Made by a program: the position numbers and the translations under genes
From: an uncultured Alphaproteobacteria bacterium
Lineage (GTDB): Bacteria; Pseudomonadota; Alphaproteobacteria; Rhizobiales; Aestuariivirgaceae
Reading direction: 5' to 3'
DNA length: 64,000 nt
Assembly (NCBI GenBank): GCA_963846785.1
Contig: CAWJXD010000014.1
Location: forward strand, 16,600 to 80,599
In this document: piece by piece, positions 15,140 to 19,639 of the stretch
How the letters are laid out: every line of letters begins with the position of its first letter
Numbering within the stretch: position 1 is the stretch's first letter
Notes under the pieces: generated by a model
Databases searched by the model: none
The model's input: the letters and a program-made list of their open reading frames with translations, nothing else
What the model was told of the DNA's origin: nothing

Positions 15140-15262
15140 CAGAAAACTCCAATTGCCCGATGTTTCCAACTGTTCGCGGGCGCTGACAAGGTTCAATCCA
15201 TTGGCGAATGGTGAGCCAGATCAACGATATAAGATAAAAATGCCCAAGAAGGAAAATAATGC

Positions 15263-15291
15263 TTGACACCGCACGGTGGGTGTGCTAGATC
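15263..15291 (+). promoter_or_regulatory. Sigma70-type promoter
   Basis: TTGACA (15263-15268), 17-nt spacer, TAGATC (15286-15291). Confidence 0.65.
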
Positions 15292-15339: not shown

Positions 15340-15456
15340 ATGACGAACACGCTCCGCAGCGCTCCCGGTTGGGACATGGCAGGGGTTTCCAGACGATCAA
15401 ATACCCGGTTCAATCGGCAAATCGACGGCTCCTTCGGCTTCGGCGAGATTGCTTGA
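15340..15456 (+). CDS. Candidate 38-aa small or leader ORF (MTNTLRSAPGWDMAGVSRRSNTRFNRQIDGSFGFGEIA)
   Basis: Open frame just after a GNRA-capped hairpin downstream of the 15263 promoter; no clear RBS. Confidence 0.3.
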   Translation: MTNTLRSAPGWDMAGVSRRSNTRFNRQIDGSFGFGEIA

Positions 15457-15481
15457 TTCCGGCGCATATACAGTGTATATC
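15453..15481 (+). promoter_or_regulatory. TA operon promoter with overlapping palindromic operator
   Basis: TTGATT-N17-TATATC; inverted repeat ATATAC-agt-GTATAT at 15466-15480; ATG at 15488 lies at the expected TSS. Confidence 0.65.
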
Positions 15482-15487
15482 ACTTGC

Positions 15488-15811
15488 ATGACGACCCCTC
15501 GAACCAGTAAATTCAAAAAGCCACCTGCAAAGGATCAAACCTTTGTCGCAACGCAAATGCGTTTTGACCGGGCCGGGCTCTCGAAGATCGACCGTGCCGC
15601 CGAGCTGTCCGGCACCACCCGGTCGGAATTCGTGCGCCGCAGCGCGGTGGTGGAAGCCGAAAAAGTTTTGCTCGACCAAGTCTACTTTGGGGTCGATCGC
15701 GCAACGTTCGATTTCTTCTCCGATGTTGCGTCCAAACCGCTATCCGGCGAAGCCTTTGAACGACTGATGCGCGTCAAGTCCCCCTGGGACAAAACCGCAA
15801 TCGGGAAATGA
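15488..15811 (+). CDS. DUF1778 ribbon-helix-helix antitoxin (TacA/AtaR-like)
   Basis: MRFDRAGLSKIDRAAELSGTTRSEFVRRSAVVEAEKVLLDQ; ATGA overlap with the GNAT gene. Confidence 0.9.
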   Translation: MTTPRTSKFKKPPAKDQTFVATQMRFDRAGLSKIDRAAELSGTTRSEFVRRSAVVEAEKVLLDQVYFGVDRATFDFFSDVASKPLSGEAFERLMRVKSPWDKTAIGK

Positions 15812-16281
15812 AACCGCCGGAGCCATTGGCACTCCACCATGGCCTCGACAGTTTTGAAAGCGCGCGCCCCGTACTCAACATCTGGCTGAAAACCCGCGCA
15901 CGTATCAACGAAACTTACGGCGCATCGCGGACGTTCGTCGTATGTGCAGAGAAGGGCCATGATGTGATTGGCTACTACTGCCTGTCACAGGGTGCCATCG
16001 GCCACGAACAAGTCTCATCCAAGTTCCGCCGCAACATGCCCGATCCCATTCCGGTGACTCTGCTCGGGCGGTTGGCAGTGGACCAGCGCTTTGCCGGAAA
16101 GGGCCTCGGTGCCGCCCTCCTGAAAGACGCCGTTCTGCGCGCCAAACACGCCGCCACCATTGTGGCCTCACGCGGCATGATTGTGCATGCGCTGGATGAC
16201 GAGGCGGCTACCTTCTATGCACGGTACGGGTTTGTGGGAGCGCCAAAGATGCCGCTGTTGATGGTGTTGGGGTTTGGGTGA
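15808..16281 (+). CDS. GNAT acetyltransferase toxin (TacT/AtaT-like)
   Basis: LNIWLK, IGYYCL, NMPDPIPVTLLGRLAVD and acetyl-CoA loop AGKGLGAALLKDA; directly downstream of DUF1778. Confidence 0.92.
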   Translation: MKPPEPLALHHGLDSFESARPVLNIWLKTRARINETYGASRTFVVCAEKGHDVIGYYCLSQGAIGHEQVSSKFRRNMPDPIPVTLLGRLAVDQRFAGKGLGAALLKDAVLRAKHAATIVASRGMIVHALDDEAATFYARYGFVGAPKMPLLMVLGFG

Positions 16282-16324: not shown

Positions 16325-16972
16325 TCACTCTGCCGCAATCCTAAGTGCCGCAGAATTATGAGCGTAGGTCTTCCATGTCGGTGCATAGTCTTCGTTGGCT
16401 TGGTTGCCCCAGTAGGTCCAACCCGGCCTTGTGCCGCGCGCAAACAATTCGAGAAAAGGTCCGCGTGAGCAGGCCTCGATAAGGCCATATTGTTCGTCAG
16501 GCTTTCTGGAGTGCTCGCGTTTACGTGTCTCCATCATGTTCACTTGGCGGCGGCCGGGGGCCAGTGTTCTTGCACCTTTACCCCGTGTGCCAAAGAGCAG
16601 GACTTCGGTGACGTTGCGGAAATAGAAGCCAACGCCTCTGCCATCGGAGCCACCGTCTTTGCGGATTTTGTGCCAGATGATGTTGCTTTTGTAGTCAAAG
16701 CCCCAGGCTTTCATCACGGCAAGGCCTTCTGGCAGCAAGGCATTGGGCACCCACATGTATAAATGTGCCGGTTCCTTTGCGACATCGGCCACGGGTAGGG
16801 CGCATATGTCAGCCAGCGTCATGGTCTCGTAGCGGTTTAATCGCTTGTGCTCAGGTGCCATCTTGCCTGTGCGATTGGTGAAGCGCCAAGGCGGATCGGC
16901 CATGATGGTTTGGAATTTTCGCCCGCCGAGCGAGGAGGCAAGATCGATGATTGTTTTATTCAGTTGATCCAT
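16325..16972 (-). CDS. MT-A70 family adenine methyltransferase
   Basis: Catalytic ADPPW, HLYMWVPNALL, WGFDYKSNIIWHK, GFYFRNVTE, HSRKPDE and LELFARG motifs. Confidence 0.93.
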   Translation of the reverse strand: MDQLNKTIIDLASSLGGRKFQTIMADPPWRFTNRTGKMAPEHKRLNRYETMTLADICALPVADVAKEPAHLYMWVPNALLPEGLAVMKAWGFDYKSNIIWHKIRKDGGSDGRGVGFYFRNVTEVLLFGTRGKGARTLAPGRRQVNMMETRKREHSRKPDEQYGLIEACSRGPFLELFARGTRPGWTYWGNQANEDYAPTWKTYAHNSAALRIAAE

Positions 16973-17081: not shown

Positions 17082-17231
17082 TTACTTGCCCTTGGCGGGC
17101 TTCTCTTGAGCCTTGGCCAAAGCCTTTAGCTTGGCGTCGAAGGCGGATTCGCTGTCATCAGTTTCAAGTTCTTTGGCCATGGCCTTGAATTTGGCGGCTT
17201 GAGGTTGGTTAGTTAAATGATTAGATTTCAT
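17082..17231 (-). CDS. 49-aa small protein of the type seen beside IS1595 transposases
   Basis: MKSNHLTNQPQAAKFKAMAKELETDDSESAFDAKLKALAKAQEKPAKGK with GAGGG RBS; below the ORF-track cutoff. Confidence 0.6.
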   Translation of the reverse strand: MKSNHLTNQPQAAKFKAMAKELETDDSESAFDAKLKALAKAQEKPAKGK

Positions 17232-17250
17232 TTTGACCCTCTAAAGCGAA

Positions 17251-18035
17251 CTAATGAAGAAAAGAGCTTGCCATTTTTTGGCGAACAGCAACACAATCTC
17301 CATCCATTGAGGCAAGGATAATTTCTGAGTTCATAACCCTCGATAAAGTGCGATCTTTTATTTCTTTGGGTTTGGCCTCTTTCAAAACAAGCATCGAACG
17401 AGTTTCGTCTACATGCTGTTCTTTTTGCTCTCTGTAGAACAACAGAGCTTCCAGTGCTTTAAGTTCGGATGTGCCAGCAAAAATAGCAAGCTTTTTACCG
17501 TCTGGATGTTCAACAATAATGTCAACCACGTAGTCATTCATCGACGCTTGCAATGGTTCGTCAATTCTGATTTTTGCCGATCCCGATTGAGCTTCAACCA
17601 ACTTAGCAACGGCTTCCTTTGACGTCCCAAGCGAAGCCAATGTATTGCTAGAAGCGCCTTGATAAACCACCATCCGGGGTTCATCAGGCTTACGAACGTG
17701 ACCGACTTGCTTACAATTTCTTTCATTGGCAAATAATCGGTATGTAGGAGCATCGCGTTTTCGTCAAATTGAGCGCAATGTTGATCAAGCTGACCGTTCA
17801 ATGCTTCAATGCGGCTATCAGTATCGAAATCAACCCCGTTTGATTCCAGATAAGCTAAAGTTTCACCGTCATCCTCTAACCTAAACAGAGCAGGGAAATT
17901 TGGGTTTCGCGTGATGTAGATTGCTATCGGGTCACCAACTTCTTCAAAGAAAGGTGTGAGTAAAACATAACGAATCGGCACTTCGGCAATATAGAGCTTT
18001 GAACAAAAAGCCTCACAGAAATCTTGCTTATTCAT
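17251..18035 (-). pseudogene. DUF1828-domain protein, split or garbled near 17620-17680
   Basis: N-half (LLTPFFEEVGDPIAIYI, FRLEDDGETLAYLESNGVD) in ORF 17538-18035; C-half (DIIVEHPDGKKLAIFAGTSELKALEA) in ORF 17251-17673. Confidence 0.65.
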
Positions 18036-18490
18036 AGCAAGTCACCTTGAGCTTTAAAACGAAATCTTTCTGCAGCTAATGTGAGAGCTGAAGCGGCGCT
18101 CACCGCAAAATGTTGTATACCATGAACGGCAACGGCTTTTGGCCATCGACGCAAATGAGATCGCGCAGCCCTGATGGAACGGCGATGTGGTCATCCAAAG
18201 TAGATGGCAGTGCCAACCTGGTCTGACGCATGAAACTGTATTGACAATGAACGCGCATATCTGAACCATCTTCAATCCCAAGTGTTGCTCTAAAAATCTG
18301 TTTGTTTTCATTCCGAACAATGAGAACTCGACGAACCTGATCTATGCATTGTATCTTGCAAGCGGCAACTTATCGACTGGGCCAAATTTGCAGCTTTTGA
18401 CCTGATGGCGACAAAGGAAACGACTTGGAGCAAAATGGCCGACTAGCCATGTGCCCTCATCAAGCGTGAGCTTGAAACGGCAAAACCTGC
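18032..18490 (-). pseudogene. Multiply frameshifted upstream partner of the DUF1828 gene
   Basis: Pieces in different frames: RRVLIVRNENKQIFRATLGIEDG, CQY(E)FHASD(P)GWHCH, LAAERFRFKAQGDLL*; its stop overlaps the DUF1828 ATG (ATGA). Confidence 0.5.
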
Positions 18491-18499
18491 CAGTGCAAT

Positions 18500-19110
18500 G
18501 CCCACAGATAATCCAAGGCAAACCACCTGCCACGTAGAACAAGATTGCCCACGGAAGCTGTTGAAGCATCCACGTCCGTTCCACAAATCGATAGAAAGGA
18601 TCGTTGGCTGTTGCCGGCTCAATAACAAAGCGGGGCGGATTCTGGAGGTCCACCACACAGTGCATTTGCCACCACGCGTCCACAAAAAATGAGCGGCGGT
18701 GTGCATAGAAGATCATGGCAATCCGTCTGCCGCTGAGCCCAGTCGCGAATGTCATGTGCAGCGATCATGCCGAAGCCGGCCATTCCAACAAGTGTTCCCA
18801 GATAGACAAGAAGGCGTTCAAGCCACTTTGGCGCAGCGAACGAACGATGGATGAGTAGTCGGTGCATTGCAAGGCGCAATAAGGTGGCAAGAAAACATGA
18901 GGTTTATAAGTGATTAAAAGGTGCGGTGCAGTTGATGGGAGGAGATGAACTTTTGCTGCTCCCACAGAGTGACCAGCGCAGATGGTGATAGCCGTGGTTA
19001 CAAGAAACAAGAGGAAAGCATCCAGCTGAAATGTCAGCAGGCGCACCAACAACAGCTATGATTGACATTGTGAGCACCCAAAAGGACTTGGCAGGAACCC
19101 AAAACAAACA
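18500..19110 (-). pseudogene. Fatty-acid (acyl-CoA) desaturase relic
   Basis: Fragments across frames: WVPAKSFW, ITICAGHSVG / MHRLLIHRSF (His box), HDIRDWAQRQ and FVERTWMLQQLPW; 3' half absent; 92-nt insert at 18868-18959. Confidence 0.7.
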
Positions 19111-19131
19111 TGACCGAGAGAAAGCACAACT

Positions 19132-19188
19132 TACATGATTAAAGGCTTTGGCTTCATTGTAAAAATACGGGTGGCTGAGAATAGACAT
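19132..19188 (-). pseudogene. N-terminal stub of an IS1595-family transposase
   Basis: MSILSHPYFYNEAKAFNHV resembles the MSxLSxPxFxxExxAF start of alphaproteobacterial IS1595 transposases; zinc ribbon and DDE domain are missing. Confidence 0.55.
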
Positions 19189-19266
19189 TGCTTAGCTATC
19201 CGAAATCAATCCGATCAGTGGAGATTGTCGGTTTAGGGTAATAGTGTAAGCCAGGTCAGCACAGGA

Positions 19267-19545
19267 TCACCCATCATCCTTGTGCACATGCAGAAACCGC
19301 GCAATCTTCTGTTTCAACTCAAACGACCGCGCCGGATCGCTCACCGAAGCGGCATCGTCAAACAACGCCCGCTGAAGGTCGGTAGGCAGGTCGTTCCACT
19401 GCATCATCACTGCAGCTCCAAGGGCGCGTAACACACGCTCGTCCGTTGCGGAAAACGTTTCGTGCGGATGCGCAGGGGCACCACCTTCGTCATCCCAGCG
19501 CGCCAATGCCTTGGCGAGATCGTTGAGGTTTTTCAGCTTGCTCAT
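19267..19545 (-). CDS. Hypothetical protein (92 aa)
   Basis: Coding-like ORF (ARWDDEGGA, VLRALGAAVMMQWNDLPTDLQRALF), divergent from the RibD-C gene. Confidence 0.65.
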   Translation of the reverse strand: MSKLKNLNDLAKALARWDDEGGAPAHPHETFSATDERVLRALGAAVMMQWNDLPTDLQRALFDDAASVSDPARSFELKQKIARFLHVHKDDG

Positions 19546-19639
19546 GTGACCGAGATTAAACCCGATCCGCGCCGAATGCCAGCACCCGCAGAGCAGTACA
19601 CCGATTGCCAACGACTTAGCATTTGGATACATTTATCAC

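What the first reader, a model, noticed from the sequence alone, without database searches (positions are those of the whole stretch)
17251..18490. DUF1828 two-gene cassette as candidate defence cargo
An AT-rich coupled pair (ATGA overlap at 18032-18035) consists of a small protein with a His-rich FHAxxxGWHCH motif and a DUF1828 protein whose C-half (D-I-I-V...LAIF) could be a PD-(D/E)xK-like fold. It sits in a mobile element next to R-M and TA genes, the usual context of anti-phage systems. Function is unknown to me and this copy is damaged. This is the best candidate here for an undescribed system.
Basis: partly seen in the sequence, partly recalled or inferred. Interest (0 to 1): 0.7.

Follow-up and report, generated by a model that had tools for sequence, protein, structure and literature searches.

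The report
Broken transposon cargo nuclease gene pair
This is a broken copy of a little-known gene module (a new histidine-cluster protein, a DUF1828 restriction-nuclease-like protein and a tiny charged protein) that elsewhere travels intact inside IS1595 jumping genes and temperate phages; it may be an anti-phage or exclusion system, but nobody has tested that.

Summary
On the minus strand, 18493-17251 carries two coupled genes with an ATGA overlap at 18032-18035. Gene A is a ~159-aa protein with the family signature E-(Y/F)-H-A-S-E-P-G-W-H-C-H. Gene B is a ~258-aa DUF1828 protein whose C-terminal half models as a PD-(D/E)xK nuclease fold.

Both main genes are dead here. A has lost its start codon and carries 9 deletions. 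B has one frameshift. A contig from a ~99% identical relative (L084) has the same locus intact: IS1595 transposase, A, B, C, MT-A70.

In 61 independent loci A is almost always followed by B. In nine complete elements A-B lies inside IS1595-family transposons, bounded by ~23-bp inverted repeats. Eight of the nine have perfect 8-bp target duplications. A-B also sits next to the repressor of Rhizobium phage RHph_N28_2 and in a second prophage-like contig.

Gene B matches PADLOC's untested candidate PDC-M24B over its N-terminal half only. Gene A has no known family and no structural neighbour. Neighbouring genes show no defence-island enrichment.

Verdict: a decayed relic of transposon and phage cargo. 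A defence role is plausible but unproven.

The parts
17082..17231 (-). Gene C. An intact 49-aa Lys/Ala/Glu-rich protein and the third gene of the module (consensus QSxRFIExARELGCDEDEAAFDxKLRxIAKAxPK).
   Evidence: ORF listed. It is 42% identical to the C gene of prophage-like contig L076. An 8-member alignment was made. The same position is occupied after B in L002, L005/6, L007, L008, L011, L016, L076 and L084. It is 98.7% identical to L084.
17251..18035 (-). Gene B pseudogene. N-terminal DUF1828 domain plus C-terminal PD-(D/E)xK nuclease-fold domain (~258 aa when intact). It is split into ORFs 18035-17538 and 17673-17251.
   Evidence: Pfam PF08861 E 2e-13. The read-through hits 45 homologues, most of them intact proteins of 256-265 aa, at 98-100% coverage. 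There is a single frameshift at about 17630. Against L084 there is a 2-nt insertion at about 17631 and a 6-nt insertion at about 17664, with 95.1% identity. The AF2 model and Foldseek give Can2, NucS/EndoMS and Kpn2I.
17480..17560 (-). Putative nuclease motif of B: NDYVVDIIVEHPDGKKLAIFAGTSELKALEA, i.e. D ... E-x-K. Coordinates are approximate.
   Evidence: Translation. D170 is invariant in 37/37 diverse homologues. ExK is kept in this clade and in the phage copies but replaced in the second clade.
18032..18493 (-). Gene A pseudogene (~159 aa when intact). A novel beta-sheet protein with an E-x-H ... E-P-G-W-H-C-H cluster.
   Evidence: tblastn and a frameshift-aware alignment to P0048 give 74.5% aa identity and at least 4-5 frameshifts. 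Against L084 the start ATG is CTG at 18493-18491, there are 9 deletions and 89.4% nt identity. Intact homologues are shown.
18032..18035 (-). ATGA stop/start overlap of A and B (translational coupling).
   Evidence: Sequence. The overlap is conserved in L001, L002, L003, L008, L074, L075 and L084.
18203..18240 (-). Signature motif FHAS(D)-PGWHCH of gene A, interrupted by 1-nt deletions at about 18238 and about 18222.
   Evidence: Three-frame translation. Deletion sites against L084. The motif is invariant in the family.
18498..18867 (-). Acyl-CoA desaturase-derived fragment (about residues 83-207 of a 325-aa desaturase). It sits where the 3' part of the transposase gene should be.
   Evidence: blastn to plasmid desaturase genes at 67-68%. 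tblastn E 2e-41. L084 has an intact transposase at this place.
18920..19188 (-). Remnants of the IS1595-family transposase gene. Codons 1-19 lie at 19188-19132 and codons about 93-112 at 18979-18920. The rest is decayed or replaced.
   Evidence: tblastn with the L084 transposase. DNA alignment to L084.

Best explanation
WHAT IT IS (confidence about 0.9). This is the decayed remnant of an IS1595-family 'transporter IS'. Its intact form, seen in a ~99% identical relative, reads: transposase > A > B > C, followed by MT-A70.

State of each gene in this window:
- The transposase is reduced to two short remnants, and part of it is replaced by a fragment of an acyl-CoA desaturase gene.
- Gene A has lost its start codon and carries 9 small deletions.
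- Gene B has one frameshift.
- Only C is intact.
- The cassette is therefore non-functional here.

WHAT THE INTACT MODULE DOES (confidence about 0.4; inferred). A-B(-C) is an autonomous accessory module. It rides on IS1595 transposons and temperate phages. It most likely acts as a nuclease-based exclusion or defence system against incoming DNA (phages or other mobile elements).
- B is the effector. An N-terminal DUF1828 domain carries invariant CxxxC, R-L-E-D-D-G, R75 and D91. A long helical linker joins it to a restriction-endonuclease-like core (D170 ... E189-x-K191 in this clade). The overall layout resembles NucS/EndoMS or Can2.
- A is translationally coupled to B and probably forms a complex with it. 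It is a new beta-sheet protein with a cluster of E91, H93, H100 and H102 on two adjacent strands of a predicted beta-hairpin; that they share one sheet face is inferred from strand register, not read from model coordinates. This looks like a metal or catalytic site. A may be a sensor/activator or a second catalytic subunit.
- C is a small charged protein, possibly a regulator.

Shown: gene linkage, carriers, folds and conserved residues. Inferred: A-B complex formation, nuclease activity, target and phenotype.
For: Anatomy:
- L084 is colinear with the window. Flanks are 99.2% identical, MT-A70 99.2% and C 98.7%. It carries an intact transposase (313 aa), A (159), B (258) and C (49).
- Transposase remnants remain in the window.
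- Frameshifts were mapped.

Cargo status:
- IS1595 transposases score 173-192 bits on NF033547 against a cut-off of 75.
- Conserved ~23-bp terminal inverted repeats enclose transposase plus A plus B in nine complete elements. Eight of these have perfect 8-bp target duplications.
- A transposase lies adjacent in 10 of 18 independent loci that have at least 1.3 kb of flank on both sides. Transposase and B identities co-vary, rho 0.54.

Autonomy of the module:
- A is followed by B in essentially all of 61 independent loci.
- A-B lies downstream of the S24 repressor in Rhizobium phage RHph_N28_2.
- A-B-C lies between the replication and terminase genes of contig L076.
- It is solitary in Mesorhizobium.
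- Six IMG/VR contigs carry it.

Nuclease:
- The AF2 model has pLDDT 88.8.
- Foldseek gives Can2 8bao at 2.6e-4, NucS 2vld at 4.8e-4 and EndoMS 5gke at 7.2e-4 (rmsd 3.7 over 112 columns). Weaker matches are Kpn2I (2.4e-3), Card1 (9.4e-3), and EcoT38I, McrC, MspJI and BamHI (E 0.02-0.22).
- D...ExK is conserved in this clade and in both phage copies.

Link to defence:
- B matches PADLOC PDC-M24B at E 1e-15 to 2e-18.
- PDC systems were predicted by embedding in BREX, DISARM and type I R-M loci.
Against: - No experiment exists for this pair or for PDC-M24.
- The PDC-M24B match covers only the DUF1828 half, and A does not match PDC-M24A.
- Neighbours of 25 loci are mostly housekeeping. They include only 2 DNA methyltransferases and one Wadjet-like pair, so there is no defence-island enrichment.
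- The ExK dyad is replaced by S-x-x-R...D/E in the second clade. Only D170, S188 and N234 are near-universal in the C-terminal domain. Catalysis is therefore not assured family-wide.
- A has no recognisable fold relative, so its role is a guess.
- No copy was found in 72,556 plasmids.
- The right end of the element could not be located in L084 or the window.
Confidence: 0.5

Rival explanations
1. Addiction (toxin-antitoxin-like) module. One of A or B is toxic and the other, or C, neutralises it. This would stabilise the IS or prophage that carries it rather than defend the host.
For: The layout is a small co-directional pair with a 4-bp overlap. The pair is carried by selfish elements. It is scattered among housekeeping genes rather than in defence islands. 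A is inactivated more often than the longer B: 7 loci have only A broken against 2 with only B broken. That pattern suggests A is costly. TA modules inside transposons are known for the Tn3 family (my own knowledge, not checked here).
Against: Both A-only-broken and B-only-broken loci persist, so neither gene looks like an indispensable antitoxin for the other. There is no match to any toxin or antitoxin family in Pfam, NCBIfam or PADLOC. C is absent from, or different in, the second clade and phage N28_2.
Confidence: 0.2
2. Transposition accessory. B would be a TnsA-like second-strand nuclease, with A as its partner, working with the DDE transposase of this IS1595 subgroup.
For: A-B is tightly linked to the transposase, with only 12-16 bp between the transposase and A in L005-L007. 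It lies inside the inverted repeats. Transposase and B identities co-vary. B has a restriction-endonuclease fold, as TnsA does (the TnsA comparison is from my own knowledge).
Against: A-B occurs without any transposase in two phage genomes, in Mesorhizobium, in Aestuariivirga and in 8 of 18 well-flanked loci. It occurs in two different orientations relative to the transposase. Element L008a, next to L008b, has the same kind of transposase and ends but no A-B.
Confidence: 0.08
3. The damage is an assembly artefact and the cassette is functional in this organism.
For: Differences from the near-identical L084 are confined to transposase, A and the 5' part of B, and they stop sharply at about 17530. 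They are rich in 1-nt deletions. Transversions outnumber transitions 64 to 29, and there is no third-codon-position bias. That pattern fits unpolished noisy-read consensus in a repeat. Metagenome contigs from runs X1/X2 match an allele with an extra base, as in L084, at the edge of one deletion site.
Against: The transposase gene is not just mutated. About 370 bp of desaturase-derived DNA replaces its 3' part. The left inverted repeat and 5' UTR are replaced by unrelated sequence. An 8-nt deletion and ATG->CTG remove the A start. Long genes elsewhere in the window are uninterrupted.
Confidence: 0.1
4. B is the restriction enzyme of a type II R-M system whose methyltransferase is the adjacent MT-A70 gene (16325-16972).
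For: MT-A70 follows C by 109 bp on the same strand, both here and in L084. PADLOC scores it as a type II MTase at 4.7e-94. B resembles Kpn2I, EcoT38I and BamHI by fold.
Against: No methyltransferase lies inside the other complete elements or next to the phage and Mesorhizobium copies. The MTase has normal GC, while A-B is AT-rich. In this genome the MTase is conserved at 99.2% while A and B decay. That pattern fits an independent orphan MTase.
Confidence: 0.05

Closest known systems
PADLOC PDC-M24 (phage defence candidate, two genes FAM_00129>>FAM_00065; Payne et al. 2024, bioRxiv 10.1101/2024.01.29.577857)
   Same: Both are two-gene cassettes in which the second gene is a ~255-aa DUF1828-type protein. 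B homologues hit the PDC-M24B models at E 1e-15 to 2e-18.
   Different: The match covers only the N-terminal half (profile positions about 20-147 of 255). Partner A gives no hit to PDC-M24A or any other PADLOC model. PDC-M24 is itself an untested prediction. The cassette here has a third gene and rides on IS1595 elements.
IS1595-family insertion sequences that carry passenger genes ('tIS'; Siguier, Gagnevin & Chandler 2009, cited in PMC7986276)
   Same: The transposase has the Zn-ribbon_IS1595 and DDE_Tnp_IS1595 domains and matches NF033547. The elements have short terminal inverted repeats, 8-bp target duplications and extra non-transposition genes between the ends. That tIS exist in several IS families is stated in PMC7986276. 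The 8-bp duplication as a family trait is from my own knowledge.
   Different: I could not check ISfinder, so I do not know whether this cargo (A-B-C) is already recorded there. In the window only fragments of the transposase survive and no inverted repeat remains.
NucS/EndoMS (PDB 2vld, 5gke) and the CRISPR ancillary nucleases Can2/Card1 (8bao, 6xl1)
   Same: All have a two-domain layout: an N-terminal binding or sensor domain, a linker, and a C-terminal PD-(D/E)xK nuclease. Foldseek probability is 0.99-1.0 for the NucS/EndoMS and Can2 chains and 0.85 for Card1. The nuclease domain superposes on EndoMS at rmsd 3.7 over 112 columns.
   Different: Sequence identity is 8-14% and whole-chain TM is only 0.28-0.35. 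The DUF1828 domain is not a CARF domain. There is no sequence-level PDB relative. Nothing links B to PCNA, mismatches or cyclic oligoadenylates.
Prophage exclusion genes expressed with the repressor (lambda cI-rexA-rexB type arrangement; my own knowledge)
   Same: In Rhizobium phage RHph_N28_2 the order is S24-family repressor > A > B on one strand. This is the position of lysogen-expressed exclusion genes.
   Different: There is no sequence or fold relation to RexA/RexB. Expression in the lysogen has not been shown. Only one phage has this exact arrangement.

Membership tests
DUF1828 (Pfam PF08861) | Match to the Pfam model above its gathering score | tested here: met
   The window N-terminal ORF scores 50.8 bits against a cut-off of 22, E 2e-13. 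Intact homologues score 51-56 bits.
PD-(D/E)xK nuclease superfamily (C-terminal half of B) | Restriction-endonuclease-like alpha/beta core fold | tested here: met
   The AF2 model has pLDDT 88.8. The five best Foldseek hits are PD-(D/E)xK nucleases: Can2, NucS and EndoMS at E 2.6e-4 to 7.2e-4, probability 0.99-1.0. Kpn2I follows at 2.4e-3 and Card1 at 9.4e-3.
PD-(D/E)xK nuclease superfamily (C-terminal half of B) | Conserved catalytic D ... (D/E)-x-K residues | tested here: inconclusive
   D170 is invariant (37/37). E189-x-K191 is present in the window's clade and in both phage copies. It is replaced by S-x-x-R...D/E in the second clade.
PD-(D/E)xK nuclease superfamily (C-terminal half of B) | Metal-dependent nuclease activity | not testable with these tools
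   This needs purified protein.
PADLOC PDC-M24 candidate system | Second gene matches PDC-M24B | tested here: inconclusive
   The hits are significant (E 1e-15 to 2e-18) but cover only profile positions about 20-147 of 255.
PADLOC PDC-M24 candidate system | First gene matches PDC-M24A | tested here: not met
   Nine A-family proteins, including phage and distant members, gave no PADLOC hit: two at E<=0.1 and seven at E<=1.
Anti-phage defence system (generic) | Enrichment next to known defence genes | tested here: not met
   144 neighbouring ORFs from 25 loci include only 2 DNA MTases, a few HTH proteins and one DUF2397/DUF2398 pair. The rest are housekeeping or phage genes. ORF calling was crude and no formal background was computed.
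Anti-phage defence system (generic) | Protection against phage when expressed | not testable with these tools
   No report was found. 'DUF1828' occurs in 2 unrelated papers and 'PDC-M24' in none.
Passenger cargo of an IS1595-family transposon | IS1595 transposase in the same element | tested here: met
   NF033547 scores 173-192 bits against a cut-off of 75. Pfam Zn_ribbon_IS1595 and DDE_Tnp_IS1595 are present. In the window only remnants remain.
Passenger cargo of an IS1595-family transposon | Terminal inverted repeats enclosing transposase and cargo, flanked by a target-site duplication | tested here: met
   Nine complete A-B-carrying elements of 2.5-3.2 kb were found. Eight have perfect 8-bp duplications. 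This is not met in the window itself: no inverted repeat was found in 14.5-20.5 kb.
Type II toxin-antitoxin pair | One partner indispensable to neutralise the other | tested here: inconclusive
   Both A-only-broken loci (7) and B-only-broken loci (2) exist among 61 independent loci. Metagenome errors and hidden point mutations cannot be excluded.
Type II toxin-antitoxin pair | Match to a known toxin or antitoxin family | tested here: not met
   No Pfam, NCBIfam or PADLOC toxin or antitoxin model hits A, B or C.
Type II restriction-modification system with MT-A70 | Methyltransferase conserved next to the nuclease across the family | tested here: not met
   MT-A70 follows C only here and in L084. 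It is absent from other complete elements and from the phage and Mesorhizobium loci.

The most novel reading that the evidence does not exclude
A-B-C is a previously undescribed immune or exclusion system. A DUF1828-nuclease effector would work with a partner of a new fold that carries a Glu/His3 metal or catalytic site. The system would spread mainly as cargo of small IS1595 transposons and as a lysogen-expressed gene pair of temperate phages. That would make ordinary insertion sequences vehicles for defence genes.
Probability: 0.35. Interest if true: 0.65.

Novelty: new variant of a known kind. Interest (0 to 1): 0.5.

Why it matters
If the intact module protects against phages or other mobile DNA, three things would follow.
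- A new partner protein family, about 240 clusters at 50% identity among 1.84 billion representatives and with no known fold relative, would join the set of defence components.
- The DUF1828 proteins, including the untested PADLOC candidate PDC-M24, would gain a first functional anchor.
- Insertion sequences of only 2.5-3.2 kb would be shown to ferry immunity genes.

For this genome the result is ordinary: the cassette is a dead remnant and should be annotated as pseudogenes.

The comparison with a ~99% identical relative also shows rapid and very local decay of the transposase, A and the 5' part of B. The adjacent genes stayed unchanged. This is either a mutational curiosity or a warning about the assembly.

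Tried and rejected
- Pfam, NCBIfam, PADLOC and PHROGs scans of gene A and gene C found nothing.
- Foldseek of the gene A model against PDB and BFVD gave a best E of 0.34 and 0.078, so there was no usable match.
- Profile searches of A and B against PDB sequences found nothing below E 0.3.
- HUH-nuclease, His-Me finger and RNase T1/barnase-like readings of the gene A His cluster were considered. I did not adopt them because the topology is a plain five-strand meander and no structural hit supports them.
- A tblastn of A against 72,556 plasmids gave no match. A scan of viral contigs with B patterns gave none, because the patterns were clade-specific. The A patterns found 6.
- I first read the upstream end of gene A as a deletion junction with a desaturase pseudogene at about 18475-18490. 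The alignment to L084 corrected this. Homology to A and its leader runs to 18516, and the desaturase piece replaces transposase sequence.
- A generic inverted-repeat search did not find the transposon ends. Aligning the regions upstream of the transposases did.
- The right end of the element in L084 and the window was not found. I searched by IRL similarity and by the 8-bp flank CTCATTTC. A weak match at 15250-15276 contains only a TTGACA-like core and was not accepted.
- Public runs X1/X2 hold only short low-coverage contigs and could not settle the frameshifts.
- Rfam and tRNA scans of the region were empty.
- The window's own protein could not be traced to a source record.
- Literature searches for DUF1828, PDC-M24 and ISNwi1 gave nothing relevant. 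The DefensePredictor supplements are not held.
Full report
1. THE OBSERVATION

The finding lies on the minus strand. The tract from about 17100 to 18500 has 38-48% GC, against 52-63% on both sides. Window 18032-18035 reads TCAT. On the minus strand this is ATGA: the TGA of the upstream frame overlapping the ATG of the ORF at 18035-17538.

The N-terminal part of that ORF matches Pfam DUF1828 at E 2e-13, 50.8 bits against a cut-off of 22. The frame then breaks, and the rest of the protein continues in another frame down to 17251. A read-through of 262 aa finds 45 homologues. Most are intact proteins of 256-265 aa, matched at 98-100% coverage and 37-62% identity, with the best at E 6e-89. So 18035-17251 is one frameshifted gene, which I call B.

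Upstream, 18493-18032 is shredded over three frames. Intact homologues of B are always preceded by a ~159-aa gene, which I call A, with the same 4-bp overlap. The window's fragments align to A at 74.5% amino-acid identity once frameshifts are allowed.

It is correct: E-(Y/F)-H-A-S-E-P-G-W-H-C-H is the invariant signature of the family.

A third gene was missed. C lies at 17231-17082 and encodes 49 aa. It is intact and conserved after B in many loci.

2. THE SAME LOCUS, INTACT, IN A CLOSE RELATIVE

Metagenome contig L084 (6043 bp) is colinear with the window. Its gene order is MerR, DnaJ, a RibD_C gene and a 121-aa ORF (a 284-aa ORF was called across this stretch in L084), then an IS1595-family transposase (313 aa), A (159 aa), B (258 aa), C (49 aa) and MT-A70 (215 aa).

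Nucleotide identity to the window, segment by segment:

| Segment | Identity | Indels in the window |
|---|---|---|
| Flanks | 99.2% | (2 gap columns) |
| MT-A70 | 99.2% | none |
| C | 98.7% | none |
| Non-coding gaps | 100% | none |
| B | 95.1% | two insertions: 6 nt at about 17664; 2 nt at about 17631 (the frameshift) |
| A | 89.4% | nine deletions |

- The start codon of A is CTG instead of ATG, at 18493-18491.
- The excess divergence stops sharply at about 17530.
- Transversions outnumber transitions 64 to 29, and there is no third-codon-position bias.
- Of the transposase gene, only codons 1-19 (19188-19132) and about 93-112 (18979-18920) can be recognised.
- In between, 18498-18867 derives from an acyl-CoA desaturase gene, about residues 83-207 of 325.
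- The left inverted repeat present in L084 is replaced by unrelated sequence in the window.
- I could not find the right end in either sequence.

The cassette is therefore a dead relic here. One caveat applies. The pattern of clustered 1-nt deletions and transversions could also come from an unpolished repeat in the assembly. The structural changes argue against that, and public runs could not settle it.

3. THE FAMILY

Linkage. Sixty metagenome loci, five genome loci and six IMG/VR contigs were collected. After removing duplicates there are 61 independent groups, and A is followed by B wherever the contig allows. The counts are:
- both genes intact: 36
- only A broken: 7
- only B broken: 2
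- both broken: 3

Gene A. The A family is small and nearly always stand-alone at about 160 aa. It has 242 clusters at 50% identity among 1.84 billion representatives. One member is fused to a NUMOD4 DNA-binding module of homing endonucleases. A has no Pfam, NCBIfam, PADLOC or PHROG family. Its AF2 model is confident (pLDDT 92.1, pTM 0.88): a five-strand antiparallel meander plus helices. The model has no significant neighbour in PDB or BFVD. E91 and H93 lie on one strand and H100 and H102 on the next. From the strand register I infer that they share one sheet face, which suggests a metal or catalytic site.

Gene B. The B model has pLDDT 88.8 and two domains.
- The five best PDB matches are Can2, NucS and EndoMS (E 2.6e-4 to 7.2e-4). 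Kpn2I (2.4e-3) and Card1 (9.4e-3) follow. EcoT38I, McrC, MspJI and BamHI appear lower, at E 0.02-0.22. The C-terminal half is therefore a PD-(D/E)xK nuclease fold.
- D170 is invariant.
- E189-x-K191 is kept in the window's clade and in the phage copies but is replaced in a second clade.
- The DUF1828 half holds most of the invariant residues: CxxxC, R-L-E-D-D-G, R75, D91, R120, D123 and D139.
- B matches PADLOC PDC-M24B over this half only.
- B matches phrog_5059, of unknown function, over its full length.

4. THE CARRIERS

IS1595 transposons. In many loci an IS1595-family transposase lies next to the pair. It scores 173-192 bits on NF033547. Two arrangements occur:
- upstream on the same strand, with only 12-16 bp before A;
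- in a more distant clade, downstream and convergent.

Aligning the regions upstream of the transposases revealed conserved ends:
- GGCGATTATGTAGTTGAC...
- GGCAATTATCACCTTGACATAGTA

Nine complete elements of 2.5-3.2 kb enclose transposase, A and B, plus C and sometimes a fourth ORF. Eight of them are flanked by perfect 8-bp direct repeats. A-B(-C) is therefore passenger cargo of IS1595-family transposons.

Among 18 independent loci with at least 1.3 kb of flank on both sides, 10 have the transposase adjacent. Transposase and B identities co-vary, rho 0.54.

Other settings. The pair also exists without any transposase:
- In Rhizobium phage RHph_N28_2 the order is S24-family repressor, A, B.
- In contig L076, A-B-C lies between the DnaB/replication genes and the terminase/portal genes.
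- In Mesorhizobium and Aestuariivirga it is solitary among metabolic genes.

5. THE WINDOW'S NEIGHBOURHOOD

- TacA/TacT lies at 15449-16281, and an orphan MT-A70 methyltransferase at 16325-16972.
- Beyond these are housekeeping genes: NDK, OmpA-like, a DAO-GcvT dehydrogenase, DnaJ/CbpA and SpoU.
- There is no tRNA, integrase or Rfam hit.
- MT-A70 follows C only in this lineage.

6. FUNCTION

Shown:
- a tightly coupled A-B(-C) module;
- its carriers;
- a nuclease fold with D...ExK in this clade;
- a conserved Glu/His cluster in A.

Inferred:
- A and B form a complex;
- B cuts DNA;
- the module excludes incoming phages or other mobile DNA.

For defence or exclusion (my estimate about 0.4):
- the position next to a phage repressor;
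- carriage as cargo by mobile elements;
- the nuclease effector;
- the relation to a candidate found embedded in BREX, DISARM and type I R-M loci.

Against:
- PDC-M24 is untested.
- A does not match PDC-M24A.
- 144 neighbouring ORFs of 25 loci show no defence-island enrichment.
- ExK is not universal in the family.

Rivals:
- Addiction module, about 0.2. A is broken more often than the longer B, but both single-loss states exist.
- Transposition helper, about 0.08. This is contradicted by the copies that lack a transposase.
- R-M system with MT-A70, about 0.05.
- Assembly artefact, about 0.1.

These estimates are not mutually exclusive: the assembly-artefact rival concerns whether the window copy is really damaged, not what the module does. 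The remaining probability on function is 'something else'.

7. COMPARISON AND NOVELTY

The closest listed system is PADLOC PDC-M24. B meets the B-model over half its length, and A fails the A-model, so I do not file the pair as a member.

The carrier belongs to the known class of insertion sequences with passenger genes (PMC7986276). I could not check ISfinder for this cargo.

By fold, B works like NucS, Can2 or a restriction enzyme. A is new.

I rate the module a new variant of a known kind, and the copy in this window a pseudogene relic. Interest is 0.5.

Noticed in passing
window 17530-19260: Compared with the ~99% identical locus L084, divergence is extremely local. A differs at 10.6% of sites and has 9 deletions. 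The 5' part of B differs at about 5-11%. Identity then returns to about 99-100% from about 17530 onwards. Transversions outnumber transitions 64 to 29, and there is no codon-position bias. Possible causes are error-prone repair near a break, import of an older decayed copy, or an unpolished assembly repeat.
   Followed up: partly
window 18498-18867: An internal fragment of an acyl-CoA desaturase gene (about residues 83-207 of 325) sits where the 3' part of the IS1595 transposase gene should be. It looks like filler DNA captured during a deletion. The junction falls at similar peptide strings (..AHRLRLAM / ..HRLLIHRSF). No intact desaturase is in the window.
   Followed up: partly
window 15449-16281: A TacA (DUF1778-type antitoxin, PF08681) and GNAT-toxin (TacT-like) pair with overlapping stop and start codons. 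It lies convergent with the MT-A70 gene.
   Followed up: no
window 16325-16972: An orphan MT-A70-family DNA methyltransferase (PADLOC MTase_II, E 4.7e-94) with no restriction gene nearby. It follows gene C by 109 bp both here and in L084, and stays 99.2% identical while A and B decay.
   Followed up: partly
window 19267-19632: A 121-aa ORF with no family match in Pfam or NCBIfam. It is conserved in L084 and ends just before the former left end of the IS.
   Followed up: no
L008 706-5930: Two IS1595-family elements lie 39 bp apart, each with its own 8-bp duplication. L008a (1981 bp) has other small ORFs instead of A-B. L008b (3205 bp) carries transposase, A, B, C and a fourth 163-aa ORF with a sub-threshold DUF6980 match.
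   Followed up: partly
P0162 (208 aa, representative library): An A-like domain is fused behind a NUMOD4 module, at the place where phage homing endonucleases carry their HNH domain. This is a weak hint that A acts on DNA. It is a single case and could be a gene-calling artefact.
   Followed up: partly
L018 454-474 and 2119-2139: The A-B pair is flanked by two identical copies of a 21-bp palindrome (CATGTTCCCGCTCGGGAACAT). No transposase or IS1595 end is present.
   Followed up: no
L067 1055-3427: Two decayed A-B copies lie tail to tail (convergent) on one 4.4-kb contig.
   Followed up: no
L005 and L006, gene A codon 45: Gene A carries an in-frame stop at the same position in two assemblies, while transposase, B and C look intact. 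In L002/L012, A ends right after the HCH motif (105 aa).
   Followed up: no
L026 1546-1734: In the second clade, a different 62-aa Arg/Glu-rich ORF overlaps the stop of B by ATGA, at the place where C sits in the first clade.
   Followed up: no
B family alignment, residues C7 and C11: A CxxxC pair in the first helix of B is nearly invariant (35-36 of 37), and A has an invariant H-C-H. This suggests a possible shared metal site at an A-B interface. It was not tested.
   Followed up: no
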